Sequence record: OR699282.2
DNA from: Escherichia phage BAU.Micro_ELP-22
Direction: 5' to 3' (one strand)
DNA length: 64,000 nucleotides
Positions 1,932-63,126 of this stretch are shown in pieces. Below the pieces are notes generated by a model. The model saw nothing but the letters and a program-made list of their open reading frames with translations, had not been told where the DNA came from and searched no databases. A program made the position numbers and the translations under genes. How positions within the stretch are numbered: the stretch's first letter is position 1; each line of letters begins with the position of its first letter.

Positions 1932-1940
1932 ATTAAAAAA

Positions 1941-1962
1941 GACTCCTATATGGAGTCTTTTT
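1941..1962 (+). terminator. rho-independent terminator
   Basis: GACTCC-tatat-GGAGTC stem-loop followed by TTTTT. Confidence 0.55.
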
Positions 1963-1971
1963 CACATTATG

Positions 1972-1980
1972 TGATATAAT
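1972..1980 (+). promoter_or_regulatory. extended -10 element TGnTATAAT
   Basis: GTGATATAAT; the same 10-mer recurs at 14314-14323 and 40171-40180. Confidence 0.4.
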
Positions 1981-2007
1981 GATAATATTAATCTTAAGGA
2001 ACCTAAC

Positions 2008-2277: not shown

Positions 2278-2295
2278 TATACATGGAGAAGTATT

Positions 2296-2922: not shown

Positions 2923-3016
2923 ATTATAAACAATAAGGACTGGACAATTAAATCCTTCAATAAATAAGACTATACGAATATATTTCGAATAACCAATTAT
3001 TTTTGGAGGATTTAAT

Positions 3017-40180: not shown

Positions 40181-40220
40181 GTTTATTAATTAGAGTGACG
40201 TGAATCACATAGGAGAATAC

Positions 40221-42509: not shown

Positions 42510-42546
42510 AAAAAAGAAAAGGAGAGCATTATGCTCTCCTTTTTTA
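42508..42546. terminator. bidirectional rho-independent terminator
   Basis: A-run, GGAGAGC-attat-GCTCTCC, then TTTTTTATT between convergent genes. Confidence 0.7.
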
Positions 42547-45500
42547 TTACTTAACTAATAATATATTTTTAATATCATTACCACTAACTTGTAGACTATC
42601 AGTGTATACTGAAAGATCTATAGTGTAACTATTTTGTGTGTAACGTTTTAACATATCATAATTACCTAAATTAATTCCATTGAAAGAATATGTAGTATTA
42701 AGTTTAAAATCATGTTCTGCACTATACATTACACCACGGAGTAAATTATTTGCATTTCTAACTTCAACTTTTTCATATCCAATCGATATAATATCATTCA
42801 TGTTCGCGGCTGAACCGGATAAAACATTATTTCTAATACTATAAGGACTTATTGATTTAGGTTGAGAAACATAGGTTGTATTTTCTTCACTAATGGTTGT
42901 GATGTTAGTAACAGTACCCCCAACAACACCGATATACATACCGTCAACCATTGGGAATCCATAAACCCATATCCCTTCATTATTTCTAAACGGTTGAATA
43001 ACACTTGAATCATATTCGATAACGTTGATTTCTAAACTATCAGTCATTTTAGTTCTTGCCAATTCACTAAGAACTCCCGCACCCGTAATTGGTAAGTTAT
43101 AACCGTTATCGATAGTAATTCCATCAACATCAAATATTTCATTGGAGATTATCCAAACGTCAACGTCATCTGGTGTTATTCCGTCATTGTACTTACCACC
43201 ATTTAAAGTAGTATCGTAGAAAACATCATAATTAATTACATCAATGGTGTAATTTCTATTTTGTTCATACAATTTAATACCATTCTTGACAAATTCAGGG
43301 TCAGCAAATGTTCTAACACGAACAATGTTCAATGCTAGAGGCTGTACTGGCTCATTTTGTTGTGCAAGAGTGATGTTATCATAACGGAGAACTGCACCAG
43401 TACTCTCATCAATCAATTCAATCGTTTCCTTACCTGTATTTCTTACAGTGAATAGGATCGGAGTTGTATTGTTTTTGATGTTAGATACACGCAAGATTGT
43501 TTCCCATGTGTGATTTTGATATCTCACAAAATCTTCACCATCAGGAGTGAAAATCATCACCTTATCACCATCAGATAGGTCATTGTCAACTATTTCTGCT
43601 TCAGTTAAGCTATTAATAGATCTCACACGATAGAAATATTTTTCATCAAACTTCGATGTTGTTTTATTAATATCATTTTCAATCTTAGCATATGAAGGAA
43701 TACTTACAATTGCTTCTGTATGTTTATATGGATTGATAATTGCCATACCTTCAGTTTGATATCTGCTGTTATCACGTAATTGTACAAGAGATACATTGTC
43801 AAACCCATATCCATCAACTGTAAATCTAATTTGTCCAACATCACGCCCAGAAGGGTTTATGTCAGATATATCCACAATATAAGGATCAACTTCATCATCT
43901 TTAACTTCCCATTTTATTGAAGAAGTTTGAGATTCCAATGCTAGGTTATCAAATGCATTCATATCATTGAAGTACTTAGCTTCAGTAATACTATCAAGTA
44001 TATATTGATAATCAGAATACATTGGATTATTTTGATCTAGTGGTAAATCATCAAGATTTATTTCAGCTAGTTCAACCATTTCACCATTTGTGATAAAATA
44101 ATCTTCCATGAAATCATCAATACTTTGTTCATCAGGTATACTTTGATATACACCGTTAACATTTAAGTAAACATATTTTCGTGGAATCATTGTAATTGCA
44201 TAGATATCAATTGGGGTCTTACTAAGAATCTCTTCAGCTTTTTCGTACTTATCAGTAGCGTCTTTGTCGAATAACCCTCTCATACCTGCTAATACGTGAA
44301 TAGCATCAGTATAGAAACGGGTATCACCACCTACTTCATCATAACGATAAACATATACACCATACTCAACTTCAAGTTTAACTTTTACTTCATAGTCTGA
44401 TGCGTCAGGATTTTTATCTTTAATTAATGAAATGTATTTTTGATACAATTCACTGCTTATTTCAAAATATCCATAGTTATAATCATTACTAGAAGAAAAG
44501 CCTAATGGAAGTCTAGTACTAGGATTGTCATTATAAGTAAGTCCACTAAATCCACATCCAACTTCATCGTGAATTTTCTCATCACTTATATCTTTATAAA
44601 GTTTCAAACGGTTTGCCAATGTGTTATACTGAACATATTGTCTAAGGTCAGTAAACATATCGTTATGCGTTGATTCTTTATAAACACGTTCCAATGTAGC
44701 AGTGAATTCATCAGTTGCTTCTAAATCTTCCGCATGGTCTTTATACCACTGGTTAACGCCATATGCTGTTCCTAGTGTTACATCCAATTCTGGATAGTAG
44801 ATTTGCATTTGATAAGCAATAAGAAGATCGAAAGTTTCTTCACTATATTCTGGGAAAGAATATATATAACGTTGTAATTCATAGTTACTAACAGCATCCT
44901 TTTCATTGGATTGATATTTGTTATTAACACTTACTAATTCATTTATGCTTGCCAAATCTTCATTTGGTTTACACTGAATATTATCATAATGCATAATAAT
45001 ATCAATTTCTTGGAATCTTCTATTTGGTGTAACGAAATCACTTGGTAGTGAACCTACCTGTTCCCATTTTTGGGTAATTTCATTAAATTGAGCGTACTCA
45101 TAATCCCAAATATCTTTTTCAGTTTTGATCCAAGAACTGTCAACGAAAATATATCCATTAGGATCTAAATCATTACATAGACCTTTTATTAAATCATCAT
45201 CAGATGTCTTTTGCTCTATTTGTGAACGAATTTTAGTTCTATAAGGTTTAACTTCTTCAAAATATTCAACAATTTGATTAATCAAATTATCGTTTGAATA
45301 GTTTTGAACTAATGATTGTTCCAAACCAACAATATAGATATATGATGTTTTAAATACCCAATCCACAACACTTTGTTCAACATGTACATATTTGACCATA
45401 TCAAAAACAATTTCGCTTTGATGTAAATCGAAAGAATTTTTGAGTAAAGCTAGTGCTTTACGAACGTTGATTTCACGATTGCTTAGTGAACCATTATCAT

Positions 45501-48500
45501 TATGAACACTATAATCTGCGTAAAGCATATCATTGAGTTCAACTGTACTGTTTTCACGACCAATCGCTTTCCAATAAATTGAATCGCGTGATTGTGATTT
45601 AATATACAATGTCCAAATGTTTTCACTATCGGTAACTCTGATAATATCGCCAACTTGGTAGTTTTTAGTATTAGCATCTTCTAAGCTTGACTCTTGAGTA
45701 TAAGTCGTGTTACTATCATATCCAACATCATACCAATCAGCATATGACCAGTACTGAGTCATGTCTAATGAGGTTCCTAGTGATTCAACATAATCAGATT
45801 GTTTAATCATTTTATGTTGTCCCTCACCTTTGTTTTCTAACGTTATAGTAACAACACTACCCGCGTTTGCTGGACTATTCATTAACTGAATATATCCATT
45901 TTCGTCGAAGTGAATAAAATAAACAGCACTAGAAGTTAATGGATTTGGTAGATATCCACTAGTACTTAAAATAACAGCGTCATTTTCTTTAAATTTATCA
46001 CTTTCAACTGCAATAACTAATTCATTATTGTAAGACAACACACGGAAAGAAACTTCATTAGGGTTAACTTCAGTGGTTTTAACATTAAACACATCTTCCA
46101 TAACAACACTATTAGTGGTTATGTTTTGTGACCTATAATAATTATTAGCACTTTCTACAAAGTTTCTACGAGCTTCTATAACATTTTGGAACCAAGTTTT
46201 GTTTGATCCTAAACCGTTATCAACATCTGGATATAATAAATTAATCACAGAACCTGATTCAGTTGTTTCTTGACCAATTAGTGAGTTCCACATTGAATCC
46301 CAAATTAGTGGGTTAAAGTTATAGCTGTCACCTTCTTTACATAGTTGATACTGGTCATGTTTAACAACTTCAGTACTATCCATGTAATAAGAAACAGTTA
46401 AAATACTGGTATCATCATTCACTTTAAATTGCATATTACTAAGAATAAACGAGTTTTCATTTATTGGAGCGAACCAAGGAATGTTTAGCTGTGTTGGATC
46501 TTTAATAATACGAGCAATGTCAGTACATGATTTCGTTCTGGTATGTAGTGGTGGTACATAAATTGTATCACGTACCCAGAAATAGTATTTTGTCACATAA
46601 CTATCAGTTGAACTATCATATTCCAAAAATGTACTATAATTATCTTCAAGTGCAGTTCCACTTGGTAGATACATAGTATTATTTTTGTTTTTCTTAGCAA
46701 CATCTTTACAGTATTTGTCCCAGTTATATGGCTCAACTGGTGAACAAACCCACTCTAACACATCAATGGTACTATGTGGCAACAAACGGCCCCAGTTGTA
46801 ACGTTTGTATTCATTGGTTGCATCAATATCAACATTACCGTCTGCGTCATAAATTGCACGAGTATAATCCAAATAAAATGCAGTGCTAGTGTTCCACCAT
46901 ACTTGACCAACTTTATCAGCACCCCAAGCCTGGATTAACTCTCCATTACTATTATACTGTGCAGGATCAACTGGTGAAGTATATGTTACGTTTTGCATAG
47001 CCGCACCTGGAATAACACCATTAATTGGGTCATAAACATTTAGATATAGCTCAGTAATGTTAGTACGTTCATCATATGTCGTTGGACGATCAAATAAAGT
47101 ACTTTGTGGTGCTTTAAAACTATATTTCTTGTCAATGTAAGCTTGACGTTCATCAGTACTGGCAAAACGTGATACATAACGATACAAACGTGGACGTGTA
47201 TCTGGATCAGTAAATTCAATATCAATAGAAGTGTCAAATGGAACTACCATAACTTTAGGATCAGAACCAGCAGTATAATATTGACTTTCTACTGTTAAAG
47301 TATCTGGCATAAAGTTAGTTTCATCAACAAAATAATAATAATCACCATCTTCAAGTGGTACATTATCAGTTAAAGTTACTTTACAAAATTGTTCAGCATA
47401 CACATCGGTATTTTCAATAGGTGTTATAGAAACCATTTGCACATTAGTATCAACCAATTCAAAAATGTTCCACAAACCATTACCGTCTTTAAACATCCAC
47501 ACAGATTCAGGATTTTCACCTTTACCATTAGTATAAGTTATGCGGTCATTATATGCAGTACTGAAATCTTTTGTTGTGTACGATACTTCATCCAATGTTA
47601 CTGGACCAATATCTGGAAGTTGGATGTTTTCACTTCTTCCACTACGCATTGGGAATGAGAACTTACCATTTGGACGTGTAATCCAACGAGGATCTTTACC
47701 TTGCTCACCGAAGTATACAATATGATTACCATTACCATTTGAAGTTGCATTTACATCAAAAGAAACCATTTGAGGTTGTTGTTTAAATTGGTCATTGATT
47801 AGTTTAAATTGAAGGTTTTTCTTACCATCAATATTACCATATGTACCAATTTTAAATGCCCATTCTTGTAATGCTTTATATTCATCAGTGTCATATGATT
47901 TAGAAACACGAAGTACACGTTCTAAAACTTGGTTAGTACCTTTATCGTGAATGAATCCTTTATAGAAATCAACACGACTAACATCACTACTAATCATACG
48001 CTGTAGATAATCACGAGATTGATAACCAATCAAATGGTTTGACAACTCTTGTAATTGTACATCACTTACTGGAGTTTCACTATCATAATAATGTTGGAAA
48101 TCCGACACTAATTTTTCAAATGATGGTAGTGTTCCAGCTTCCAAGATAATAAATCCAGGAGCTTGTAGGCGACCAGTCCATGAACCAGTAATATATCCAT
48201 ACATTTTAATTAGTTCTTGAATAGAACCATATGTTGGCTGATAAATGTAATCACCAAAAATAGTTTTATCATCAAAAATAACAGCATGTTCATATGAACA
48301 CAAACTTAAACGAATCAATGCAATGCGTTTATTAGATTCTAAAGTTCTAACAGTGAAGATATTTCCAATACGAGAAGTTTCAATTTCATATTGGCGAATA
48401 CCTTGGTTATTATCATCAAGTAATGACCATACACCACCATTATTTTGCGTAATAGATTGTACTGAACCAAAGTCTGCCCCAAATTTAGCGTTTGCAGCAC

Positions 48501-51500
48501 TTGGGGTACAAGAAATAAATTCACCAGTTACTAGAGAATTCTGACTCCAGATCACGAAATCTTTAGCAATAGTGTTCCAATCTTGTTGAGCACCACTATC
48601 ATTTACATCTTCAAAAATCCAACCATGTTCTTTAAGATATTCACCATATCCACAAATAAAAGTATAAACTTCTTGGTAACTATTGAAAACTTTACCATAT
48701 TCAATTGAAGCTTCAGACTTCCATTCATTATAATGAACAACATTACGGTTTTCCAATTTAAGAGTTACTTTTCTACCATTTTTTACTGGAAGTTTATATT
48801 TAAATTTAGCACCAACTAGATCATATCCATCAATCTGATATGCACTACCATTCCAAGTAATTTTGATCGCACTCATTTGCTCATCACGGATATTATTAGA
48901 ACGAACAAGACCAATGGTTTGGTTTTCTTGTGAAATAAGACCGAAAGATTTAGCATTGAATGTTAGCTGATCTGCTTTAGTAAATCCTCCAATTTTATGA
49001 CCAACATTTATATAAGAAGAACGAACTACATCCCCATACTTGGTAGTAATATTTTTATTTTGATACATCAAATGGTCACTTACAAACATTTGATAACCAA
49101 TTGTTCTTGTGCTATTTTCACCATGAACTACTGTATTTTTATCAAAATTAATACGCTTACGTGTATCACCATAAAGGAATTGTGAACCATCAGTGAATAC
49201 TTCTTTTAAGTTATCGTTGCGGGTATCCCAGAAATAGTTAGCAAATTGTGCTGGTTTAGCTTTATACAAAAGCATCATTTGGTCATATGCAAACAATGTA
49301 GTGTTCATGTATGTAAATTCCATGTCACCCATATCACCATATGTCCAAGGTTCTGCTCTATGATTTAAAGATCCAGACACTAAACCTAAAATTTCAGGTG
49401 CAATATATTCAACCACACAAATATCAATACCAGAAGATGTTTTATTTCCAGTTTTTGTAATTTTGAATGGCTGTACACCAAATCTTTTATATTTGTCATA
49501 TTGACCACGACGATCACCAAATAAAATAGTTCCAGTACTGCTATCGCCAATAGTTCCGTCAATATCCCAAAGACCACTAGGAACTAAATCACCTTGCTCA
49601 TTCATAACAAGTGCTTCATATACATATACAACATCACTATCACGTTCACCAACTTGAACAGCCGTTGGTTCGTATTCTTGGTTCCACCAAGTTGGACGTT
49701 GTGTAAAGCCAAACATTTCCCACGGATGGGTAGCTGGGCGATATGTACCATATTGGTCAGTGTAAATGGCACGCCATGAACCACGTGCAGGAATTTCAGT
49801 ACTTTGACCATTAACTACATAATAAGTGCCAGTATAGTTCCAAGTTCTCCAATTGTTAGGATCATAATCATGTGTACTATTACTGATACCATTAGTTGCG
49901 GTGAAGTTAATGTATCCACGTAGTAATAATGTTTGTTTCTCTTCAGCACTATATTCAGTTTTAGTGAAATATGGTGTAGGGAAAAGGTCATCACTATTCA
50001 ATACTGGTACGTAATCAACATCTTTGAATTTATTATCAATACTATTAAAAATTCTATTTTCTAATTCATATACAACATCATCCATTTTATCAACACCATT
50101 GATAACACGGTATGCTTTGGAAATAATACCAGTATGACTGATGTTATAACAGCTTGGTTTACTACCAGCAGTGAGGAATGTCGCTTTTTCTGGTACATAT
50201 GCTTGAAGAATACCTAAGAACTGTGGTGTTGGTGGTATAAATGCACGAATGAATCCAGAAGTACTTCCAACATTATCATAATAGAATGGGAATGAACTAT
50301 CACGTCCCATATTAATAGTAGTTAAAATTGCATCAACAATGTTTGCAGCACTATTTTGTAAAAAGTCTGATGGATTTTCATCATACATACGAAGCATTTG
50401 TGTATTAAATTTATTAATGAATCTAAAATATTCAGATTGCATAAACATAGTTGCTTCAAACAAATCAATATCTTCATTTGCAGTATGTGCCATCAATGGA
50501 AGCATAGATGCTTCATTTTGGATAATTTTAGTACCTACGCCATTATTAACCAATCCTTTAGCCAAACGTTCTTCATAGTCATTGAAATCATCAGAAGAAC
50601 CACGTGTAATGTTCTTTTGAATAATATCCTGAAAATGTAAAGTGTAGTCACCTTGGTTAATGTATATAATATTAGAATTATATGGGTTATTTTGTAGGTT
50701 GATTGGAACTTCATATGCACCTAATTCTTTATTAGGAGTTACAGTACTGCTATAAGTTCTAATTTGAATAACAGAATCTTCATCCAATTCTACAGTACTA
50801 TCTAGAGTGATGCTTTGTACTTGACCTTTTGAAACATTTTTGGTATATTTGGACACATCAACACCATCAACCACAACTTCAATAATATCAGAATCATTAT
50901 CTAAAACTTTTTGTGCCAATTCGAATGTATGGTCATATTTTACAATCTGAACACCATCACCAGTAATTGGATGCCAATCTAGATAAGTTTCACGGTCAGC
51001 TTTATAGTACTGATATGTTCTATCAACTTCAATAACATATGCATACATACCATCAACTGGTTCTTTAAAAACTTCCATATCATAAACAGTACTGAATACA
51101 CGATACATATCAGTACGTTGGACTTGTGGAGTTTGTTTTACAAATTGTTTAGAGTACTCTTCTGAACGAACCCAATCGGTTTGAAGATTCATTTCATTAT
51201 TTTCATCAATAATGTTATAATAGTATAAACCATCAATTTCAACTTCTTTTCCAAGATGGTCATAGGTATAACGTTGGGATTGTAAAAAGTTTTCATAAAT
51301 GTAATAATTATAATCACCAAGTTCAATGTTATATCCATATACACTATCAGTTGCATAGTTGTAATTTATTTTAAAACCAAACAACTCTGAACCTTTAAAG
51401 TTACTTGATGGATATGTAGTACTGTTGTCAAGTTTGATACCATTACGATCATAAAGTTGGAATTTAGGGAATACGTTAACACTAGTTTTTGATTGTGCAC

Positions 51501-52548
51501 GAACCCACAAAGATCCATTCCAGTACATAGAACTATTACCATACTCATTACCTTTAGTGATTAGAACAACATCACCATCTTGAGGTTCACCACTTGGGCG
51601 TGATTCGGTTTCTTCTTCTGGATCTAGTGCTAAACCATAAACACGAGTACCATCTTGCATTTTTTTCACATATACATTATAAATTCTATTGTTTTCACCA
51701 TTGTTACCAATACTGGTGAATAGAATACGCATTCCATCTTGCGGAATAATACCATCAATACGTATACCACTATTAATATCTTTTTGAACGATATCTTCAG
51801 GTTTAATAATATCAGAGAACAGATCAACAGTTCCACGGAATTTTGTACCGTAGTTAATTAGCTCAATATTTTTATTATATTCAATAATTGGTGCACGTGC
51901 ACGAATAAAACGTGAATCTTGCATTAATTCTTCAGTTAATATTGAGCCATCTTCTAATGTTTCACCTAAAGTATACCAAAAGTTTTGTAGTGACCATGTA
52001 TTACCATTAAGTGCTCCACGTTCCATTACAATGTAATCAGGTGAAGTAATATTATAAGAGTTTTTAGTATCCCAAAGATATGAGCTAAAATTGTTCATTT
52101 TATTTGGGTTAATAGCTGGAGTCCATGCATAAAACTTACCGTTGAACAAACGGCTTTCATTATCGGTTAGTGCTCCATAATGATTCATGTATCCAACTAG
52201 ATCATCATAAAATTGAATTGAACGAATTGTCGAATCATCATTTTTTGAGACGTAAGCAGTGGACAACTGATAAAGTTGACGTGCTACAGTACTTTCATGT
52301 AAGAAGATATTACCAGCAGCGGCAGGAGAACCCATATCACCAATATAGCCGTCAACTAATTCGTTTTCAGCCGGATTAAACCATTGTTGAATAACATCAT
52401 CACTGACTTTTTGAATATCTTCTAAGCCTTGCATCCACTCAGGCAATCTTTTAATAAAAAGCTTCTTCTGTACTGCTTCAGCCATCTGTGTAGGTTGAAA
52501 CTTAAAATTATTAGTCATTTTTGGACTCCATATAATTCGTTCATTCAT
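42547..52548 (-). CDS. giant protein (3333 aa), probable baseplate or tail component
   Basis: Uninterrupted 10 kb frame directly downstream of the baseplate-J-like gene; alternative ATG at 52518 has a GGAG SD. Confidence 0.65.
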   Translation of the reverse strand: MNERIIWSPKMTNNFKFQPTQMAEAVQKKLFIKRLPEWMQGLEDIQKVSDDVIQQWFNPAENELVDGYIGDMGSPAAAGNIFLHESTVARQLYQLSTAYVSKNDDSTIRSIQFYDDLVGYMNHYGALTDNESRLFNGKFYAWTPAINPNKMNNFSSYLWDTKNSYNITSPDYIVMERGALNGNTWSLQNFWYTLGETLEDGSILTEELMQDSRFIRARAPIIEYNKNIELINYGTKFRGTVDLFSDIIKPEDIVQKDINSGIRIDGIIPQDGMRILFTSIGNNGENNRIYNVYVKKMQDGTRVYGLALDPEEETESRPSGEPQDGDVVLITKGNEYGNSSMYWNGSLWVRAQSKTSVNVFPKFQLYDRNGIKLDNSTTYPSSNFKGSELFGFKINYNYATDSVYGYNIELGDYNYYIYENFLQSQRYTYDHLGKEVEIDGLYYYNIIDENNEMNLQTDWVRSEEYSKQFVKQTPQVQRTDMYRVFSTVYDMEVFKEPVDGMYAYVIEVDRTYQYYKADRETYLDWHPITGDGVQIVKYDHTFELAQKVLDNDSDIIEVVVDGVDVSKYTKNVSKGQVQSITLDSTVELDEDSVIQIRTYSSTVTPNKELGAYEVPINLQNNPYNSNIIYINQGDYTLHFQDIIQKNITRGSSDDFNDYEERLAKGLVNNGVGTKIIQNEASMLPLMAHTANEDIDLFEATMFMQSEYFRFINKFNTQMLRMYDENPSDFLQNSAANIVDAILTTINMGRDSSFPFYYDNVGSTSGFIRAFIPPTPQFLGILQAYVPEKATFLTAGSKPSCYNISHTGIISKAYRVINGVDKMDDVVYELENRIFNSIDNKFKDVDYVPVLNSDDLFPTPYFTKTEYSAEEKQTLLLRGYINFTATNGISNSTHDYDPNNWRTWNYTGTYYVVNGQSTEIPARGSWRAIYTDQYGTYRPATHPWEMFGFTQRPTWWNQEYEPTAVQVGERDSDVVYVYEALVMNEQGDLVPSGLWDIDGTIGDSSTGTILFGDRRGQYDKYKRFGVQPFKITKTGNKTSSGIDICVVEYIAPEILGLVSGSLNHRAEPWTYGDMGDMEFTYMNTTLFAYDQMMLLYKAKPAQFANYFWDTRNDNLKEVFTDGSQFLYGDTRKRINFDKNTVVHGENSTRTIGYQMFVSDHLMYQNKNITTKYGDVVRSSYINVGHKIGGFTKADQLTFNAKSFGLISQENQTIGLVRSNNIRDEQMSAIKITWNGSAYQIDGYDLVGAKFKYKLPVKNGRKVTLKLENRNVVHYNEWKSEASIEYGKVFNSYQEVYTFICGYGEYLKEHGWIFEDVNDSGAQQDWNTIAKDFVIWSQNSLVTGEFISCTPSAANAKFGADFGSVQSITQNNGGVWSLLDDNNQGIRQYEIETSRIGNIFTVRTLESNKRIALIRLSLCSYEHAVIFDDKTIFGDYIYQPTYGSIQELIKMYGYITGSWTGRLQAPGFIILEAGTLPSFEKLVSDFQHYYDSETPVSDVQLQELSNHLIGYQSRDYLQRMISSDVSRVDFYKGFIHDKGTNQVLERVLRVSKSYDTDEYKALQEWAFKIGTYGNIDGKKNLQFKLINDQFKQQPQMVSFDVNATSNGNGNHIVYFGEQGKDPRWITRPNGKFSFPMRSGRSENIQLPDIGPVTLDEVSYTTKDFSTAYNDRITYTNGKGENPESVWMFKDGNGLWNIFELVDTNVQMVSITPIENTDVYAEQFCKVTLTDNVPLEDGDYYYFVDETNFMPDTLTVESQYYTAGSDPKVMVVPFDTSIDIEFTDPDTRPRLYRYVSRFASTDERQAYIDKKYSFKAPQSTLFDRPTTYDERTNITELYLNVYDPINGVIPGAAMQNVTYTSPVDPAQYNSNGELIQAWGADKVGQVWWNTSTAFYLDYTRAIYDADGNVDIDATNEYKRYNWGRLLPHSTIDVLEWVCSPVEPYNWDKYCKDVAKKNKNNTMYLPSGTALEDNYSTFLEYDSSTDSYVTKYYFWVRDTIYVPPLHTRTKSCTDIARIIKDPTQLNIPWFAPINENSFILSNMQFKVNDDTSILTVSYYMDSTEVVKHDQYQLCKEGDSYNFNPLIWDSMWNSLIGQETTESGSVINLLYPDVDNGLGSNKTWFQNVIEARRNFVESANNYYRSQNITTNSVVMEDVFNVKTTEVNPNEVSFRVLSYNNELVIAVESDKFKENDAVILSTSGYLPNPLTSSAVYFIHFDENGYIQLMNSPANAGSVVTITLENKGEGQHKMIKQSDYVESLGTSLDMTQYWSYADWYDVGYDSNTTYTQESSLEDANTKNYQVGDIIRVTDSENIWTLYIKSQSRDSIYWKAIGRENSTVELNDMLYADYSVHNDNGSLSNREINVRKALALLKNSFDLHQSEIVFDMVKYVHVEQSVVDWVFKTSYIYIVGLEQSLVQNYSNDNLINQIVEYFEEVKPYRTKIRSQIEQKTSDDDLIKGLCNDLDPNGYIFVDSSWIKTEKDIWDYEYAQFNEITQKWEQVGSLPSDFVTPNRRFQEIDIIMHYDNIQCKPNEDLASINELVSVNNKYQSNEKDAVSNYELQRYIYSFPEYSEETFDLLIAYQMQIYYPELDVTLGTAYGVNQWYKDHAEDLEATDEFTATLERVYKESTHNDMFTDLRQYVQYNTLANRLKLYKDISDEKIHDEVGCGFSGLTYNDNPSTRLPLGFSSSNDYNYGYFEISSELYQKYISLIKDKNPDASDYEVKVKLEVEYGVYVYRYDEVGGDTRFYTDAIHVLAGMRGLFDKDATDKYEKAEEILSKTPIDIYAITMIPRKYVYLNVNGVYQSIPDEQSIDDFMEDYFITNGEMVELAEINLDDLPLDQNNPMYSDYQYILDSITEAKYFNDMNAFDNLALESQTSSIKWEVKDDEVDPYIVDISDINPSGRDVGQIRFTVDGYGFDNVSLVQLRDNSRYQTEGMAIINPYKHTEAIVSIPSYAKIENDINKTTSKFDEKYFYRVRSINSLTEAEIVDNDLSDGDKVMIFTPDGEDFVRYQNHTWETILRVSNIKNNTTPILFTVRNTGKETIELIDESTGAVLRYDNITLAQQNEPVQPLALNIVRVRTFADPEFVKNGIKLYEQNRNYTIDVINYDVFYDTTLNGGKYNDGITPDDVDVWIISNEIFDVDGITIDNGYNLPITGAGVLSELARTKMTDSLEINVIEYDSSVIQPFRNNEGIWVYGFPMVDGMYIGVVGGTVTNITTISEENTTYVSQPKSISPYSIRNNVLSGSAANMNDIISIGYEKVEVRNANNLLRGVMYSAEHDFKLNTTYSFNGINLGNYDMLKRYTQNSYTIDLSVYTDSLQVSGNDIKNILLVK

Positions 52549-52563
52549 TTGATTTATTTATGA

Positions 52564-52590
52564 TATAAAAAAGGCGTTCCGAAGAACGCC
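52564..52590 (-). terminator. rho-independent terminator with UUCG tetraloop (minus strand)
   Basis: GGCGTTC-cgaa-GAACGCC; T-tract on the minus strand; lies between the J-like gene and the giant ORF. Confidence 0.55.
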
Positions 52591-52597
52591 CGTTATA

Positions 52598-55500
52598 TTA
52601 AGAACCGATATTAATATTACTTTTAGCTAGTGAGTTAACAATTTGAACATTTTCAACAGATGCAGTACTCAAAAATATTTGGTCTGAACGTGAAGGGATT
52701 TCAAATAGAGAGCCAAATTTTGAATTTGGATTTTGTGCAACTATAACAATGGTACTAATATGCCTACCTAACTGTGAGTGTATGTAAGTACACAAATCAG
52801 TATAATAGAAACTTTCACCGAAATCCCAGTTATCAACATTGAAGTATTCATTAGTTAATGCTATGACATTTTGACGAATTTCATCATCACTCATTGTGCT
52901 GTTTGGTAATTTCACTACTTTAAAATCAGCTTTGTAATCTTCAGCAGCACTGTTGCCAAATAAAGGTAAGTACTCAGCACTATGCCAAATAATACTATCA
53001 CTAATGACTATTTTTTGTTCAACATCTTTGAACATATCTTTCAATTCAACAGATGTAGGTGGTTTAGGAATACTACCAACAGCATTATTTTTCAACCAAA
53101 CGTCAACTTCAGTTTTATATGAATTGGTTAATACATACATATCAATTAAGTTTGTTCTACTAGGATCAATGCGATTGTCGTCAGGTGCATAGTGTTTCCA
53201 ATGGAAGTCTATACTAGTACGTGCATTAGTTTTAACAGTGTACTGTGAAGTAACATCTTTGTATCCATAATAATCTAGCTTCTGATTCTCGTCAGCATTA
53301 GTTCCCATGTTATTAATTGCACGATAAAAAGCCAATTCAGGACTAACAGTGCCAGTATCATCGGAATAAGTTAAATTACTAATTAGCTGTCCTAAACGAT
53401 CATTGTTATTACCAACTGTTTGTTCAATAAAATAATATTTACCATCATAGTTAAAACCAACTAAAAATCCAGAACCTTTACTATATAATCCACTCAATGT
53501 GGTTGAACGAATTGCGTTATTTCTAACAAATTCAGTTCTTTTATATGCATTCGGCTCTGCCAAGGCTTGTTCCATTGTATAAGACCACGATGAATCAAGA
53601 AGTGTGAAGGTATCATTTGGTAACGACAGTACTGATATAGTGAAATCACTATTTTCCTGAAATACCAAAATACCACCATATTTTAATGCATCGGTTCCAG
53701 TCCAAGTAGGAACAATTTCTTTAAATTGGTTTGGTTCCAATGGTATACCATTACTATCTACTTTCCTAGATGTAACAATAACACGAGAACCATCTAGATA
53801 GCCATTCTCTTGTTGAATTGTGTCATAAATTTGAAAATCTATATTACTTGTCAATCCTGAATTACTACTACTAGTAGTGTTAGATGATAAAATTTCAATC
53901 TTATCACTTTGAACTGTACCAGTACTAATATCAGTAATTTTTTTAGATGATACAAAGTAAAATCTTACTTTTTCTCCACCCACAAAAATATATTCAATAC
54001 CGTTAGCATCAAATTCCCAAGTTTCTGCTGTATATTTTACATTAATTATAATTAAAACTTCATTGCCATTATATACAATAGTATCATCGTTGGTACTTAC
54101 TTCAATAGGAACCCATGATGTCGTTTCTTTGTCATGTACAATAACAAAATCAGTTTTTTTATCTAGCATAGCAGAAATTGCTTGAACTTCAACCGAGTTA
54201 AATCTAGTTCTATATGGTAAAATGTACTCTATGGCTTGCATTCCACTTGGAACCGATGTACTCAGTACATAAAATCCATTATCCAATACACTAACTACAC
54301 TAGCCCATATAGTAGTTCCAGAATTAGAAAATTTAATTAGAGTACCAACCTGATATGAACCATAAACTGTACCAGATGAACCCAAAATTCTACCATATGT
54401 GTTAGTTGTATAATTTGAATTGTATACCGGAGTCCATGCTTGTTGTATTTCAATACCAATTGTATTTGATGGAAACGCTTGGTAACGTTGTATTACCGCA
54501 TTTTCACCAATCAATGGTTGAATATTGTCAATAACAATACTAGCATTTGTTTTTGTAGTTGGTAGCAATAATGACCTATTAAATTGTGTGTTTTCTTGAT
54601 ATAATGCACCATCATCACTAAAAACATCGGTATTTTGATACTTACCAGTAGGATCATTAATATCAATAAATCTTGATTGTCCACTATAAATTCTATTAAT
54701 AGCTTTAGATTTAAGTACAGTATTGCCTAAACTAAGTGGTGCAATATTATAATCTTCACCATTGACAAAACGGTTTTGTGTATAGTACATTTGTGGTGCA
54801 CGTGCTTTAATCTGCTCAATAGTCTCTGCACTTTGTGCACGGTCGGACTCATATTGTAATGAAAAACGTATATCCAATGTACTAGATTCATAACTTGACT
54901 GTGTTTTTGTACGATATGTATATTTTACGCTTTTGTTTTGAATTTCAGAAGTTTTAATGTTATATGTTTTACCATTACTAACACGATACCATACGCGGAA
55001 CGTCCCACGGGGAACAACACCACTTCTTGAGTCTGGATACTTAATTGTTATTTGATCTTTATCACGAGTAGTAACAGCAAAAATTGTTTTTAATTGACGA
55101 TTAACAGTGTTATATGCAATACTTTCCATTGATGGAACTTTTGTCCATTTGGTACGAACAATACCATCTTCATTTATTTCTTGAACCCATACATCAGTTT
55201 CGTTGATATTATCAACGTTAATATCTTGTATACGGTTCTCTTCACGGATAGCATATTGATAATCTTGATATGTCAATGTACCTTGTACGAAATATACAAA
55301 AAAACCAGTATTTGGTGAGCTAAATCCATTACCATCATTTTGATAAACAATATATTTTTGCTCTTGTGGTTCTGGATGTCGTTCTTCAACACCAACAGAC
55401 GTAATATCAGGATTCACTACTTCAAATGTCATAGATTCACCATTGACAGTTGCAATAAATGGAATACTGGGTGCTGTCATTGGGATTGTGTTCATTCGAT

Positions 55501-56059
55501 ATAGTTGACGGGAGACACCATTAACATCAATACGCTTGACTGGATTACCAAATTGGTTAGTACTGACAAATGAACTGTTCATTACTAGAATGAAGTTTTC
55601 ATACCAGTTAGCATCCATCGGGTCATTCCAACGAATGATTTTATCTTTTAATGATTCATTAAAACTATTACGAACATCTTGGTTTGTTTTAATTTCGGTT
55701 AATTTAGCAACTGCACGACCTGGATATGAGCGGCGTGGTGAGTAAGAAATCATTTTAGCTAGTTTTAGTACTGATGCACGACGAGTTGCAGTATCTAAAA
55801 AGTTTTCACGTGTGTTCAAATCCATACGAAATGCCAAGTTCTGCCCTAGCATAGAAATCGTATCTAAAATAAAAATAAACTGGTCGTTTTCGATCCAGTC
55901 GTTGAATGAGTCTGGGTAAGTTGCACGTAGATAATCAATCATACTCTGACGGATAGTATCGAAGTCATAAGCTGTAAGATTGATTTTATAAAAACTTTCA
56001 TATACTTGAGTCCAATCCTCACCAGCGTATAAATTTGATTGCCTTTTTTGTTGTGACAT
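52598..56059 (-). CDS. baseplate wedge protein, baseplate-J-like
   Basis: N-terminal pattern YDFDTIRQSMIDYLRATYPD...RENFLDTATRRASVLKLAK resembles baseplate-J family N-termini; synteny with a gp25-like gene. Confidence 0.55.
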   Translation of the reverse strand: MSQQKRQSNLYAGEDWTQVYESFYKINLTAYDFDTIRQSMIDYLRATYPDSFNDWIENDQFIFILDTISMLGQNLAFRMDLNTRENFLDTATRRASVLKLAKMISYSPRRSYPGRAVAKLTEIKTNQDVRNSFNESLKDKIIRWNDPMDANWYENFILVMNSSFVSTNQFGNPVKRIDVNGVSRQLYRMNTIPMTAPSIPFIATVNGESMTFEVVNPDITSVGVEERHPEPQEQKYIVYQNDGNGFSSPNTGFFVYFVQGTLTYQDYQYAIREENRIQDINVDNINETDVWVQEINEDGIVRTKWTKVPSMESIAYNTVNRQLKTIFAVTTRDKDQITIKYPDSRSGVVPRGTFRVWYRVSNGKTYNIKTSEIQNKSVKYTYRTKTQSSYESSTLDIRFSLQYESDRAQSAETIEQIKARAPQMYYTQNRFVNGEDYNIAPLSLGNTVLKSKAINRIYSGQSRFIDINDPTGKYQNTDVFSDDGALYQENTQFNRSLLLPTTKTNASIVIDNIQPLIGENAVIQRYQAFPSNTIGIEIQQAWTPVYNSNYTTNTYGRILGSSGTVYGSYQVGTLIKFSNSGTTIWASVVSVLDNGFYVLSTSVPSGMQAIEYILPYRTRFNSVEVQAISAMLDKKTDFVIVHDKETTSWVPIEVSTNDDTIVYNGNEVLIIINVKYTAETWEFDANGIEYIFVGGEKVRFYFVSSKKITDISTGTVQSDKIEILSSNTTSSSNSGLTSNIDFQIYDTIQQENGYLDGSRVIVTSRKVDSNGIPLEPNQFKEIVPTWTGTDALKYGGILVFQENSDFTISVLSLPNDTFTLLDSSWSYTMEQALAEPNAYKRTEFVRNNAIRSTTLSGLYSKGSGFLVGFNYDGKYYFIEQTVGNNNDRLGQLISNLTYSDDTGTVSPELAFYRAINNMGTNADENQKLDYYGYKDVTSQYTVKTNARTSIDFHWKHYAPDDNRIDPSRTNLIDMYVLTNSYKTEVDVWLKNNAVGSIPKPPTSVELKDMFKDVEQKIVISDSIIWHSAEYLPLFGNSAAEDYKADFKVVKLPNSTMSDDEIRQNVIALTNEYFNVDNWDFGESFYYTDLCTYIHSQLGRHISTIVIVAQNPNSKFGSLFEIPSRSDQIFLSTASVENVQIVNSLAKSNINIGS

Positions 56060-56160: not shown

Positions 56161-56556
56161 TTATAAAGACGATACTGAATATGTTGCCATTCTGTTATTA
56201 CTTCTTGCATCGAATACAATAGTAAGTTCTTCTAATGTATCCAATACTACGTACTGTAATACAATATTCATTTGGTATCCATATTCTATTCTTGAAATTT
56301 GCAATTTCTTAAGATTTAAGCGTGGATCTAAGCTAATTATTCTACGGGCATCTGCTTCCAAAAGGTTGATAGTATTATAACCTTCCAATTCAAACAGCAA
56401 ATCCCATGCAATAAAACCATAGTCAGCATCAAATGCTCTTTCGCCTTTTTTTGTATTGAAATGATTCATTAAATCTTGGCGAACCAATTCACTATCATAC
56501 AATGTTTCAGTTCTACCCACTACTGGGGTAGAAAAACCTTTAAAAACAACTGCCAT
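56161..56556 (-). CDS. baseplate wedge protein, gp25-like
   Basis: 131 aa; KGERAFDADYGFIAWDLLFE block of the kind found in gp25-family proteins, by recollection only; AAGGAAA SD. Confidence 0.55.
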   Translation of the reverse strand: MAVVFKGFSTPVVGRTETLYDSELVRQDLMNHFNTKKGERAFDADYGFIAWDLLFELEGYNTINLLEADARRIISLDPRLNLKKLQISRIEYGYQMNIVLQYVVLDTLEELTIVFDARSNNRMATYSVSSL

Positions 56557-56571: not shown

Positions 56572-57060
56572 TTATACGGATTCAACAATACGTGCCATCT
56601 TTTCCGCTCTTGAAGTGGTTTGTTTATACCATGTACTATCACGCAATTCCTTACCAGCAGTTTTATAATCAGCCTTACCTAATGCGGTCATTGCTTTTTT
56701 AAATTTTAAAACTTTGGTTTTGCCCATCTGGAATACCATCAACCATAATACACGTTGAACCTGTACAGGTGCGGTCATACCAAATTGTTCATAAATTGAT
56801 TTTGCATCATTGTACGCAGTTTGAGCATCTTTAAGAAGAAGTTGGTCAGCTTGTGCTTCTGTTAAACCATTCTTGAAATTTTCACCAGGTAAAACTAGGT
56901 GACCATAGCCAATAGTATCAAGACCTAAGCTGTCTTTATATACCCAAAACTTATCATTTTTAAAATAACCAAGTTTTTTCTGATAAGCAATAGTTCCTTC
57001 AAATTCTTTAATTTCCTTAAAAAATTGCTCATCTGTATTTTTAATTTCCCATTTACTCAT
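56572..57060 (-). CDS. GH24 (T4-lysozyme-type) lysozyme
   Basis: EFEG...YKDSLGLDTIGYGH...LWLMVFQMGKTKVLKF...STWYKQTTSRAEKM matches T4 lysozyme blocks, with catalytic Glu/Asp/Thr positions conserved. Confidence 0.85.
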   Translation of the reverse strand: MSKWEIKNTDEQFFKEIKEFEGTIAYQKKLGYFKNDKFWVYKDSLGLDTIGYGHLVLPGENFKNGLTEAQADQLLLKDAQTAYNDAKSIYEQFGMTAPVQVQRVLWLMVFQMGKTKVLKFKKAMTALGKADYKTAGKELRDSTWYKQTTSRAEKMARIVESV

Positions 57061-57076: not shown

Positions 57077-57084
57077 TATTTATA
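57077..57084 (-). promoter_or_regulatory. T4-type late promoter box TATAAATA (minus strand)
   Basis: Exact TATAAATA 16 nt upstream of the lysozyme ATG, followed by GAGGA SD. Confidence 0.5.
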
Positions 57085-57096: not shown

Positions 57097-59760
57097 TTAT
57101 TGACATGCCTCTAAACGACGAGCCATTAACTCAGCACGGCGAGTAGTTTGGCGATACCAAGCTGAATTACGTATTTGAGCAGCAGCTTGTTTATAATTAC
57201 CTTTAGCTAATTCAGACAACATAGTTTTAAATTTAAGTACCCCACCTTTACCCATCTGGAATACCATTTGGCATAGTACTTGTTGAGCCAAATAAGGTGT
57301 TTTCATGTTGTATGAAGCATAAATTGATTTAGCATCATATATAGCTTTACTACTATCACGAACTAACATATCGTTGGCTTGCTGTTCAGTTATTCCATCT
57401 GAAAAGTTTTCACCACTAATAATTAAGTGACCATAACCAATAGTTGGATACCCACGACTATCCAAATAACGCCAGAATTTACCATTACGATAATATCCTT
57501 TTGCTTGTTGGTATTGTAATGTACCTTCATATTCTTTTAATTCAGAAATAAATTGTGCATCACCTGGAACAACTTTCCAATCGATTGCAGTTTTATCAAC
57601 ATTTCCAATATTATAGGTAGGTTGCTCCACCGGAGTTGTTGAAGCTCCACTTCTCTGTGTTCTTCTCCTACGAGGCACATGACGAGAACCACGTTGAGAA
57701 TATCCAGTACCTATCGTTTTGATTTTTGTTGTAACTACCAATTCATCACTATCAACTGAAGGTTGTACAACTGCTTTTGGAGCAGATTGATTAGTTGCTT
57801 GACCACCAATTAATGTTTTATTCGCCGCATCAGACCCTGTTCCTGTTTGTGAAGCATAAAATAATCCTGGGTCAACAGAACCACTGAATCCAAGAACATT
57901 TGCTGATGTAACACGAATTTCAAACTGTATGACACCATTTGCTTTTCCAACAACTTGACCTTTTTGAACAACATCTTTGTTTAATAAATCAGATTGAATA
58001 TTATAAAAAATAGATTTATATCCAGACTTATGTTGTATTAAAAGAGCACCATTAGTAATTACTACCACACCACCATCTGGTGCAACTACATCACCTTTAC
58101 ATTGTATTTCCCAACCTGAACGGTCTGCCTTTCCTCCACTTTGTGTTGGAACACCTTTCCCCCAGTAACCATATTGTCGAATAGTGCCGCTACATGGCAT
58201 TAACATATGTAAACCTTCATATGTAATACTATATCCAGTCATCCCAGGATCAGATGTCATCAAATCTTGTGATTGAACTTGTTCAGTTTCTGATGTATAG
58301 TTAACAAACTGAACAGCTTCAGTGTCTTGTGCTACGGGTAATTCTGGTGATACATCATTTGCTGGTTGTGGTTGTACTGGTGATTCACTAGAACCACTTC
58401 CACCACCTTGTCTTGGTGGTTCAACATAACTACCATGATTTTCAGCGTTAACCCATGCAGCAATATCATGAATGTGTTCATTAAGACCAGCAGATGGTGT
58501 TCTAAAGTTTGGTGCAGTAAATTCAGCAGTACCGCTATTACCACCACTATTAACTGTTAATGTTTGACCACCACCACTAATAATTGCTGATGATGATCCA
58601 ATTAGGTTTGCAGATGTTGCGGCAGAAATAGAAGCATTTGAACCAGCCGTAATATCAGTACTGCTACCACTTTGCATACGTAATGATGCAGCAGTAACTA
58701 AACGAAGGTCTGCCCCAGAATTAACAACAACTTGTCCACCAACTTTTGCATCAAGAGCACCAATTAGATCTAATTTAGTATTTGCACCAACTCGTGCATT
58801 GAAATCTTGTCCGGTTTCAATATTATATGAACGTCCAGCAGTAATATTAATATCTTGACCAGCACGAATATTAATATTCTTATCACAGTGCATGTCAATA
58901 TCACCTTCACCAGTGAATTTTATACGTGCAGTTCCATCACGGTTAATTAAAAGAACATCACCAGTAGCTTCTGATAAAAGAAGTTGTGCACCACTACGTG
59001 TTTTTATTACGACACCTTCATTTTTACGAGAACCAACACGTGTATCGTTTACTGGGTTATTAAATTGTGTATCTTGATATCCATCTGGGTCTTGATCCCA
59101 CGTTGGTGCTGTTAATTCCTCTTCAGTATATCCATCATCAATAATAAAACTATTACCACGTGGCGAAGACATACCATATACAGTACTGGTGGTTTGTCGA
59201 GTACTACTACGATTCGCCAACCCAGCTTCTTCGTCATATAAAAGGTTTTGCTTTTTAAGACCTGCGATAATTGGAACGTTAGCATATTTGTCTTGCATAT
59301 CGGTAGTGATAGTGTTACGATCATAGTCAGTAACAGGAAGTGGCATATCAGTTCCACCATAATTACTTACTTCAGTTGCCATACCTGGAACCATAGTATT
59401 CATACGCTGGTCATATACACAACCAATCCAATATGCTTGGAATGTACGGGCTTGTGCAAAAATTACAACAACTGTACACCCTACGTCTGGTGGTACTGCC
59501 CAAAAACCGTATCCTTTTGGATATTGACCATATGCATCAGCACTTGGAATACCTGGTGTTTTACCAGCAAAAGGAGACATGTAAGATGCTTCTATCCATG
59601 ATTCTTTTGAGTTTTTATCACTTTGAGAACCTTGTATCCAAACTTTCAGTTTTCCTGATTTAGTTGGATCTCTGTTATCCATAACAGTTGCTAACTGCGG
59701 ATAAGATGGGTCAAAACGACCCAACTGCTGTTGTGCATACTTTTTACTTGTATCTGCCAT
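57097..59760 (-). CDS. baseplate central spike protein with C-terminal GH24 lysozyme domain
   Basis: Central NINIRAGQDINITAGRSYNIETGQDFNARVGANTKLDL-type beta-helical repeats; M23/LytM-like region lacking obvious HxxxD and HxH; C-terminal YEGT...YLDSRGYPTIGYGH...CQMVFQMGKGGVLKF...SAWYRQTTRRAELM. Confidence 0.75.
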   Translation of the reverse strand: MADTSKKYAQQQLGRFDPSYPQLATVMDNRDPTKSGKLKVWIQGSQSDKNSKESWIEASYMSPFAGKTPGIPSADAYGQYPKGYGFWAVPPDVGCTVVVIFAQARTFQAYWIGCVYDQRMNTMVPGMATEVSNYGGTDMPLPVTDYDRNTITTDMQDKYANVPIIAGLKKQNLLYDEEAGLANRSSTRQTTSTVYGMSSPRGNSFIIDDGYTEEELTAPTWDQDPDGYQDTQFNNPVNDTRVGSRKNEGVVIKTRSGAQLLLSEATGDVLLINRDGTARIKFTGEGDIDMHCDKNINIRAGQDINITAGRSYNIETGQDFNARVGANTKLDLIGALDAKVGGQVVVNSGADLRLVTAASLRMQSGSSTDITAGSNASISAATSANLIGSSSAIISGGGQTLTVNSGGNSGTAEFTAPNFRTPSAGLNEHIHDIAAWVNAENHGSYVEPPRQGGGSGSSESPVQPQPANDVSPELPVAQDTEAVQFVNYTSETEQVQSQDLMTSDPGMTGYSITYEGLHMLMPCSGTIRQYGYWGKGVPTQSGGKADRSGWEIQCKGDVVAPDGGVVVITNGALLIQHKSGYKSIFYNIQSDLLNKDVVQKGQVVGKANGVIQFEIRVTSANVLGFSGSVDPGLFYASQTGTGSDAANKTLIGGQATNQSAPKAVVQPSVDSDELVVTTKIKTIGTGYSQRGSRHVPRRRRTQRSGASTTPVEQPTYNIGNVDKTAIDWKVVPGDAQFISELKEYEGTLQYQQAKGYYRNGKFWRYLDSRGYPTIGYGHLIISGENFSDGITEQQANDMLVRDSSKAIYDAKSIYASYNMKTPYLAQQVLCQMVFQMGKGGVLKFKTMLSELAKGNYKQAAAQIRNSAWYRQTTRRAELMARRLEACQ

Positions 59761-62034: not shown

Positions 62035-62349
62035 TTAGCCTATGTTTCGAGTACCATTAAGATAATTCTGTACTCTTTGATTTGCTGGTATTCTAATTGT
62101 TACTCCACTTTTAAAATTATATATAGGATCTTCTCCTAGTATGTCTGGATTTAACAATGCGAAAATATAATATAAGCGTTCATTACCATACATTTCGTAT
62201 GCTAAACGCCAAGGTTGATATTCATATTTCAATGGGATCTCATAAAAATCATCAGTATCAGCCGGAACAATATCACGTGGTAAATTATACCCAAGATACC
62301 ATGTTTGTTTCACCTTAGCGTAAGGTGAGTATTGACTATAGTTGGACAT
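62035..62349 (-). CDS. hypothetical protein
   Basis: Start overlaps the upstream stop (TAATG). Confidence 0.4.
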   Translation of the reverse strand: MSNYSQYSPYAKVKQTWYLGYNLPRDIVPADTDDFYEIPLKYEYQPWRLAYEMYGNERLYYIFALLNPDILGEDPIYNFKSGVTIRIPANQRVQNYLNGTRNIG

Positions 62350-63080: not shown

Positions 63081-63126
63081 CTTTTTGATTCTCCATAATA
63101 AGGGAACATTTGATGTATTTATACGT

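What the first reader, a model, noticed from the sequence alone, without database searches (positions are those of the whole stretch)
42547..52548. Single 10 kb ORF (3333 aa) downstream of the baseplate-J-like gene
One uninterrupted reading frame occupies about 16% of the window. It follows the baseplate-J-like gene after a UUCG-tetraloop terminator, where a P2 gpI or T4 gp7 analogue would sit. No catalytic motif is recognisable by eye. Its size suggests a multidomain baseplate, fibre-network or host-interaction protein.
Basis: partly seen in the sequence, partly recalled or inferred. Interest (0 to 1): 0.6.

Follow-up and report, generated by a model that had tools for sequence, protein, structure and literature searches.

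The report
Giant baseplate protein of jumbo coliphage
The 10 kb reading frame is a real, already catalogued gene for a 382 kDa virion protein of PBECO4/121Q-like jumbo phages. It sits where the baseplate wedge protein (T4 gp7 / P2 gpI) normally sits, but it resembles no protein of known structure.

Summary
Window 42547..52548 (minus strand) is one open frame of 3333 codons. The chance of no stop over that length is about 1e-108, and dN/dS is 0.08 along its whole length.

The window is an Asteriusvirus (PBECO4/121Q/phAPEC6-like jumbo coliphage), 99.9% identical over the gene. RefSeq calls the gene 'virion structural protein' (PHROG 10938). Its orthologues were found in virions by mass spectrometry (phAPEC6 gp245, CBB_236). 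The real start is probably the second ATG (M11), giving 3323 aa and 381.9 kDa.

The gene belongs to a family of giant proteins (2780-5638 aa) in a jumbo-phage supergroup: Rak2-like, PA5oct, Atu_ph07, SCTP-2 and Xoo-sp13. In every member examined it lies directly after the gp25-like and gp6/J-like baseplate genes. In two distant metagenomic relatives, tail-fibre genes follow it.

Residues 11-2460 form a conserved core. Residues 2461-3333 are specific to the Rak2-like lineage.

Sequence, profile and fold searches found no relative of known structure. This includes T4 gp7 and P2 gpI; TssG was tested only through Pfam. The fold searches used AF2 models of residues 11-1210 (pLDDT 86) and 2134-3333 (pLDDT 67).

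Best reading: a giant baseplate wedge/periphery scaffold in the gp7/gpI slot. This is an analogy by position; homology is unproven. The gene is known, its function is uncharacterised, and interest is moderate.

The parts
42547..52548 (-). Giant ORF from the first ATG to the stop (3333 codons plus TAA)
   Evidence: Full-length match to PHROG 10938. 99.9% identical to PBECO4 gp538, 121Q gp582 and phAPEC6 gp245.
42547..52518 (-). Probable true coding sequence, starting at the second ATG (M11): 3323 aa, 381.9 kDa, pI 4.6
   Evidence: GGAG lies 7 nt upstream. The phAPEC6 and Ecwhy_1 annotations and the database protein P0001 start here. The calculated mass matches the published one.
45169..52518 (-). 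Conserved core, residues 11-2460, shared by all giant homologues (2780-5638 aa). Insertion hot spots lie near residues 160, 460-560, 960-1010, 1660-1810 and 2160-2260.
   Evidence: The AF2 model of residues 11-1210 has pLDDT 86.2 and pTM 0.79 and no significant PDB fold match.
42550..45168 (-). Lineage-specific C-terminal region, residues 2461-3333. It diverges faster than the core but gradually, with no mosaic break.
52567..52591 (-). Hairpin GGGCGTTC-UUCG-GAACGCCU followed by five T, between the gp6-like gene and the giant gene
   Evidence: Conserved in Ecwhy_1.
52555..52562 (-). CATAAATA, a one-mismatch variant of the T4-type late-promoter core TATAAATA, 44 nt before the M11 ATG (inferred promoter)
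   Evidence: TATAAATA itself occurs only twice in the window against 10.4 expected, both upstream of minus-strand structural genes. The spacer is 100% conserved in Ecwhy_1.
52526..52529 (-). GGAG ribosome-binding site for the M11 start
42517..42543 (-). 12-bp hairpin plus T-run starting 4 nt after the stop codon, shared with the convergent ClpB-like gene
52598..56059 (-). gp6 / baseplate-J-like wedge gene (1153 aa), the conserved upstream partner
   Evidence: PHROG 10646 and 219. Listed as a gp6 homologue in the CBB paper. Found in virions by MS as phAPEC6 gp244.
56161..56556 (-). gp25 / gpW-like wedge gene
   Evidence: Pfam PF04965, PHROG 43
57097..59760 (-). gp5-like hub/spike protein with a lysozyme domain
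   Evidence: Pfam Phage_base_V, DUF2345 and Phage_lysozyme
62035..62349 (-). gp53-like wedge gene
   Evidence: Pfam PF11246

Best explanation
The gene encodes a 382 kDa structural protein of the contractile-tail baseplate. It occupies the slot of the wedge protein that pairs with gp6/J (T4 gp7, P2 gpI, T6SS TssG).

Inferred mechanism: a short N-terminal helical segment anchors the protein to the ring of gp6-like dimers. The conserved core of about 2450 residues, made of many globular alpha/beta and beta domains, forms most of each of the six wedges and the peripheral baseplate, and carries the attachment sites for the tail-fibre apparatus. The faster-evolving C-terminal part of about 870 residues faces outward.

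Like gp7 in T4, it would transmit the fibre-binding signal to the gp6/gp25 ring that releases sheath contraction.

Shown: the gene is real and under constraint, it is in a baseplate gene module, the protein is in virions of orthologous phages, the slot is conserved, and no known domain is present.

Inferred: location in the wedge, copy number (six), contact with gp6, fibre docking, and a role in triggering.
For: - Gene order on the minus strand is gp53-like, 749-aa structural protein, gp5-like, lysozyme paralogue, gp25-like, gp6-like, giant. This parallels T4 53-5-...-6-7 and P2 J-I-H.
- The same order is kept in homologues with only 25-28% identity. L004 (3826 aa) and L005 (5638 aa) show gp25, gp6-like and giant, with the giant start overlapping or abutting the gp6-like stop, followed by tail-fibre genes (Gp34_trimer, Peptidase_S74, Collar). 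Xoo-sp13 has a 3245-aa protein after two 'baseplate wedge' genes. PA5oct gp128 lies beside gp129/gp130.
- Virion MS detected phAPEC6 gp245 (381.88 kDa, 17 peptides, 7.6% coverage, next to gp244 baseplate wedge at 24.2%) and CBB_236 (21 peptides).
- No other gp7/gpI candidate is annotated in the module.
- The protein is globular, with no repeats and no TM segment. Many of the invariant residues are W, G, P, Y or F, as expected for a scaffold.
- The N-terminal residues 31-57 are predicted as helices of lower confidence that need a partner.
- Distant homologues carry CBM_5_12, FG-GAP and Laminin_G modules inserted at the variable sites, which suggests surface exposure.
- Six copies (2.3 MDa) plus twelve gp6-like (1.6 MDa) would fill about 30% of the 36 x 15 nm baseplate measured for CBB (dimensions; my arithmetic).
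Against: - No homology to gp7, gpI or TssG was detected: hhalign probability 0.3% or less and no Pfam hit for the N-terminal 500 aa of four diverse members.
- There is no similarity to the gp6-like neighbour, although gp6 and gp7 share an N-terminal fold in T4.
- Residues 1211-2133 were not modelled.
- No localisation data exist. The published phAPEC6 tail map has only 25 Å resolution.
- In this phage, unlike distant relatives, a hairpin separates the gene from the gp6-like gene.
Confidence: 0.6

Rival explanations
1. It is mainly a host-interaction protein: an adhesin or a stem/hub of the branched fibre apparatus attached to the baseplate. It would not be the wedge protein that pairs with gp6.
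Against: The protein has no repeats, coiled coil or beta-helix signature, and the models are globular. The core is conserved across hosts as different as Escherichia, Vibrio, Pseudomonas, Agrobacterium, Salicola and Xanthomonas. The C-terminus diverges gradually, without the mosaic swaps typical of receptor-binding proteins. This protein has no recognisable binding or depolymerase domain. All fold hits are below significance.
Confidence: 0.2
2. It is another kind of virion component that merely happens to be encoded in the baseplate cluster. Examples would be an internal or ejected protein, or a tail-lumen or ruler-type protein.
For: Other phages package giant proteins, such as the ~3500-aa virion RNA polymerase of N4 (my own knowledge). 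PHROG labels the family 'head and packaging', although this is a generic label. The MS data show only virion association.
Against: There are no polymerase, enzyme or transmembrane features. The modelled residues (11-1210 and 2134-3333) are not the all-alpha pattern of tape-measure proteins. Linkage to the gp6-like gene is strict over large evolutionary distances.
Confidence: 0.08
3. The long frame is an artefact, or in reality several genes, split by a frameshift or sequencing error.
For: Three near-identical GenBank records from one study annotate it as 3-4 CDSs. In SD-1_S14 this comes from deletions of 13 and 11 nt.
Against: 17 of 20 records at 95% identity or more, and every listed record at 82-89%, keep one 10,002-nt ORF. 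dN/dS is 0.03-0.13 in every full window. Homologues of 2780-5638 aa are single genes in many metagenomes. The MS-reported mass is 381.88 kDa. The split records come from unusually short genome records (310-326 kb against about 348 kb).
Confidence: 0.01

Closest known systems
T4 gp7 (baseplate wedge subunit, 1032 aa)
   Same: Both are encoded directly downstream of the gp6 homologue in a 53/5/25/6 baseplate module. Each is the largest protein of its module. Both are virion components. By inference, it plays the same role: backbone of the wedge linking the inner gp6 ring to the periphery and the fibres.
   Different: It is 3.2 times larger. There is no sequence similarity (hhalign probability 0.2%) and no fold match for residues 11-1210 or 2134-3333. 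Interaction with gp6 is untested.
P2 gpI (Pfam Tail_P2_I) and T6SS TssG, the minimal wedge partner of gpJ/TssF
   Same: The gene order W(gp25)-J(gp6)-I-H(fibre) is mirrored by gp25-like, gp6-like, giant and fibre genes in distant relatives.
   Different: gpI is 176 aa and this protein is 3323 aa. There is no Pfam or hhalign signal.
PHROG 10938: 'virion structural protein' of Rak2-like jumbo phages (PBECO4 gp538, 121Q gp582, phAPEC6 gp245, CBB_236, and the RaK2, K64-1 and GAP32 orthologues)
   Same: It is a member: a full-length profile match and 58-100% protein identity.
   Different: Nothing differs. The family has no assigned function in the papers read.
Peripheral baseplate proteins of phiKZ/Goslar-type jumbo phages
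   Different: Those baseplates use many separate proteins, including gp32/gp220 spokes. Here one chain of 3323 aa may do the job. The structural similarity is not significant.
T4-gp10-like branching/docking domains (CBA120 TSP4 N-terminus)

Membership tests
PHROG 10938 / giant virion structural protein of Rak2-like phages | Full-length sequence match to the family profile | tested here: met
   E = 0, 5792 bits, residues 11-3330 against profile positions 1-3324 of 3324. 99.9% nucleotide identity to PBECO4, 121Q and phAPEC6.
PHROG 10938 / giant virion structural protein of Rak2-like phages | Protein present in purified virions | not testable with these tools
   This could not be tested for this isolate. 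Orthologues were detected by MS: phAPEC6 gp245 (99.8% nucleotide identity, 17 peptides; PMC7247149) and CBB_236 (21 peptides; PMC5259590).
T4 gp7 baseplate wedge protein | Detectable sequence or profile similarity to gp7 | tested here: not met
   hhalign of the family alignment A3 against T4 gp7: probability 0.2%. PDB sequence and profile searches found no hit.
T4 gp7 baseplate wedge protein | Fold similarity to gp7 | tested here: inconclusive
T4 gp7 baseplate wedge protein | Gene immediately downstream of the gp6 homologue within the baseplate module | tested here: met
   Window, T4 reference, distant relatives L004, L005 and Xoo-sp13.
T4 gp7 baseplate wedge protein | N-terminus forms the core bundle / trifurcation unit with two gp6 chains, six copies per baseplate | not testable with these tools
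   No multimer prediction or structure is available. The only indication is a lower-confidence N-terminal helical segment.
P2 gpI (Tail_P2_I) / T6SS TssG | Match to the Pfam models, or to P2 gpI | tested here: not met
   No Pfam hit for the whole protein at E up to 1, or for the N-terminal 500 aa of four diverse members at E up to 10. hhalign against P2 gpI gave probability 0.3%.
Tail fibre / tailspike receptor-binding protein | Fibrous or beta-helical repeats, or a known receptor-binding or depolymerase domain | tested here: not met
Tail fibre / tailspike receptor-binding protein | Mosaic replacement of the distal part between close relatives | tested here: not met
   Identity falls gradually along residues 2560-3333 in nine homologues, with no abrupt break.
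Tape measure protein | Long, almost all-alpha-helical chain | tested here: not met
   The predicted secondary structure of residues 11-1210 and 2134-3333 is mixed alpha/beta with many beta domains.

The most novel reading that the evidence does not exclude
A single chain of 2.8-5.6 thousand residues, built almost entirely of folds with no solved relative, replaces gp7 and much of the multi-protein peripheral baseplate (the gp8/9/10/11 equivalents). This would hold in a whole supergroup of jumbo phages: Rak2-like, PA5oct-like, and Atu_ph07/SCTP-2/XacN1-like. It would be a distinct baseplate architecture in which fibre docking, host-surface sensing and the contraction trigger are integrated in one polypeptide.
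Probability: 0.3. Interest if true: 0.6.

Novelty: already known. Interest (0 to 1): 0.4.

Why it matters
The gene itself is not new. It is in RefSeq, in PHROGs and in two virion proteomes, and it has been used as a landmark ('largest ORF') for aligning Rak2-like genomes.

What remains open is its function. If it is the gp7/gpI-slot wedge protein, it would be by far the largest known, and a conserved hallmark of a large jumbo-phage supergroup. About 2400 of its residues were modelled, and none shows a significant match to any solved structure.

That makes it a good target for cryo-EM of Asteriusvirus or RaK2 baseplates, and for understanding how very large, hyperbranched fibre apparatuses are mounted and coupled to sheath contraction. 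Several of these phages are candidates for therapy.

Tried and rejected
- Pfam, NCBIfam and PDB-sequence searches with the single protein found nothing.
- PDB-sequence searches with two family profiles (A6 Rak2-like, A7 broad) gave only chance hits such as GCN5 and mS25, at E of 0.086 or more.
- hhalign of the family against T4 gp7, T4 gp10 and P2 gpI, and of the giant N-terminus against the gp6-like family, gave probability 0.3% or less in every case. The built-in profile-profile call failed and was repeated locally.
- phmmer of the C-terminal 873 aa against 1.84 billion representatives found only the same family.
- The protein has no internal repeats and no TM segment.
- The literature search found no structure or functional study of this protein.
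- The 'artefact or split gene' reading was rejected.

Full report
**Observation**

The window holds an ATG-to-stop frame of 3333 codons at 42547..52548 on the minus strand. This is 15.6% of the window. With the window's composition (about 34% G+C), a stop is expected every 14 codons. A stop-free run of this length therefore has a chance of about 1e-108.

The frame is kept, at the same length, in independent phage isolates ranging from 99.9% to 82% nucleotide identity. Compared with Ecwhy_1 (dS about 1.05), dN/dS is 0.083 overall and 0.03-0.13 in every full 300-codon window. So the whole frame is coding and constrained.

Three records from one study show it split. In SD-1_S14, the one examined, the cause is deletions of 13 and 11 nt. 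Those genome records are unusually short, and I regard the splits as probable assembly artefacts.

**Identity of the window**

The 10 kb is 99.9% identical to Escherichia phages PBECO4, SP27, phAPEC6, Sharanji and G17, and 99.1% identical to 121Q (genus Asteriusvirus, 'Rak2-like' jumbo myoviruses). RefSeq annotates the gene as 'virion structural protein' (PBECO4 gp538, 121Q gp582). It matches PHROG 10938 end to end.

**Start and signals**

The first ATG (52548) has no ribosome-binding site. Nearly every other gene in the window has GGAG or AGGA 6-9 nt upstream. The ATG at 52518 (M11) has GGAG 7 nt upstream.

The phAPEC6 and Ecwhy_1 annotations, the identical database protein P0001 and the PHROG profile all begin at M11. 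The mass from M11 is 381.90 kDa, against the published 381.88 kDa. The protein is therefore most likely 3323 aa.

TATAAATA itself is strongly depleted in the window (2 against 10.4 expected), and both copies precede minus-strand structural genes. The spacer and the first 45 nt are identical in Ecwhy_1 despite saturating synonymous divergence elsewhere. A promoter of its own is an inference.

A second hairpin plus T-run starts 4 nt after the stop codon and is shared with a convergent ClpB-like gene.

**Context**

On the minus strand the order is:
- a 273-aa structural protein;
- gp53-like;
- a 749-aa structural protein;
- gp5-like hub/lysozyme;
- a 162-aa lysozyme paralogue;
- gp25/W-like;
- gp6/J-like (1153 aa);
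- the giant gene.

T4 has 53-5-...-6-7-8, and P2 has J-I-H-G. The giant gene therefore sits exactly in the gp7/gpI slot.

**Family**

A search of 5.8 billion proteins gave 198 homologues. All 120 listed are giant, at 2780-5638 aa.

Residues 11-2460 align in all of them, with insertion hot spots near residues 160, 460-560, 960-1010, 1660-1810 and 2160-2260. The last 870 residues or so align only within the Rak2-like lineage. That C-terminal part has only 7 hits among 1.84 billion representatives, all from the same family. It diverges faster than the core, but gradually and without mosaic breaks.

Among isolated phages the family covers all Rak2-like phages, a Vibrio phage, the PA5oct group, Atu_ph07, Phosso and SCTP-2. 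More weakly, it covers XacN1, Xoo-sp13 and CM1.

Synteny is conserved at these distances:
- In two metagenomic relatives (3826 and 5638 aa) the order is gp25, gp6-like, giant. The giant start overlaps or abuts the gp6-like stop, and tail-fibre genes follow.
- Xoo-sp13 has a 3245-aa protein after two 'baseplate wedge' genes.
- PA5oct gp128 lies next to the baseplate wedge gp129.

Distant members carry CBM_5_12, FG-GAP and Laminin_G modules at the variable sites or the C-terminus.

**Virion association**

phAPEC6 gp245 (17 peptides, 7.6% coverage) and CBB_236 (21 peptides, 7.7%) were found in purified virions, next to their gp6-like neighbours. None of the papers read assigns a function. I found no structure of a Rak2-like baseplate. 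The phAPEC6 tail map is at 25 Å.

**What the protein looks like**

It is acidic (pI 4.6) and has no repeats, no low-complexity stretch and no TM segment. Many of the invariant residues are W, G, P, Y or F.

AF2 with a 24-sequence alignment gave a confident model of residues 11-1210 (pLDDT 86.2, pTM 0.79). It shows a lower-confidence N-terminal helical segment (residues 31-57) followed by a series of beta-rich and alpha/beta domains.

Residues 2134-3333 gave pLDDT 67 and pTM 0.32. Several domains reach 80-90, and the inter-domain packing is unreliable.

**Comparison with known proteins**

Nothing significant turned up anywhere:
- Pfam, NCBIfam and PDB-sequence searches, with the single protein and with two profiles, were negative.
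- hhalign against T4 gp7, T4 gp10 and P2 gpI, and of the N-terminus against the gp6-like family, gave probability 0.3% or less.

**Interpretation**

The best-supported reading is a giant structural protein of the baseplate wedge and periphery in the gp7/gpI slot (confidence 0.6).

What is shown: gene reality and constraint, virion presence in orthologues, strict and ancient linkage to the gp25/gp6 genes, and absence of known domains.

What is inferred: location in the wedge, six copies, anchoring through the N-terminal helices to gp6-like dimers, docking of the fibre apparatus, and signal transmission to the sheath.

Homology to gp7, gpI or TssG is not demonstrated. I therefore file it as working like a gp7-slot protein, not as a member of the gp7 family.

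The main rival is a fibre-hub or adhesin-type host-interaction protein (0.2). The inserted carbohydrate-binding modules in relatives and the weak TSP4 hit favour it. The conservation of the core across very different hosts, and the lack of fibrous or mosaic features, argue against it. An unrelated virion role (0.08) and an artefact (0.01) are unlikely.

**Verdict**

However, the gene is an already catalogued 'virion structural protein' of known phages. The open part is its structure and role, which only structural or genetic experiments can settle. Interest is 0.4.

Noticed in passing
window 57077-57084 (-), 63116-63123 (-), 52555-52562 (-): TATAAATA (the T4-type late-promoter core) occurs only twice in 64 kb against 10.4 expected. 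Both copies lie just upstream of minus-strand structural genes. A CATAAATA variant precedes the giant gene. The window also encodes a late sigma factor according to the PBECO4 annotation.
   Followed up: partly
window 52516-52548 (-): The annotated start differs between records. PBECO4 RefSeq uses the first ATG (3333 aa). phAPEC6, Ecwhy_1 and the metagenome gene calls use M11 (3323 aa). Only M11 has a GGAG ribosome-binding site.
   Followed up: yes
window 56572-57060 (-): This 162-aa ORF is a stand-alone copy of the lysozyme domain found at the C-terminal end of the adjacent gp5-like hub protein (57097-59760). Both match PHROG 13211, the small one at profile positions 727-885.
   Followed up: no
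window 40200-42509 (+): A ClpB/ClpA-like gene with two AAA+ domains converges on the giant gene and shares its terminator-like hairpin at 42517-42543. The adjacency is kept in Asteriusvirus but not in the distant relatives L004 and L005. A chaperone role for the 382 kDa protein would be pure speculation.
   Followed up: no
window 37277-38620 (-): PBECO4 RefSeq and PHROG 11196 call this gene 'tail sheath'. It matches Pfam T4-gp15_tss (tail sheath stabiliser, E 2e-20) and PHROG 227. The real sheath protein of this group is a 97 kDa protein encoded elsewhere.
   Followed up: partly
L009 (Salmonella phage SD-1_S14), ORF nt 1742 and 5753: Deletions of 13 and 11 nt split the giant ORF into three annotated CDSs. 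Together they remove 24 nt, so the frame is restored after the second one. Two sister records from the same study are also annotated as split. These are probably assembly artefacts, but this is unverified.
   Followed up: partly
L004 10001-10008; L005 10001; window 52549-52597: In distant relatives the giant gene's start overlaps the gp6-like stop by 8 or 1 nt, which suggests translational coupling. In Asteriusvirus a 49-nt spacer with a hairpin and a promoter-like element has been inserted instead.
   Followed up: partly
window 24580-30105 (-): This 1841-aa tail-fibre ORF has eight separate stretches matching PHROG 4549, so it is internally repetitive. Six ORFs of 110-247 aa lie on the opposite strand within it, presumably as a by-product of its composition.
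   Followed up: no
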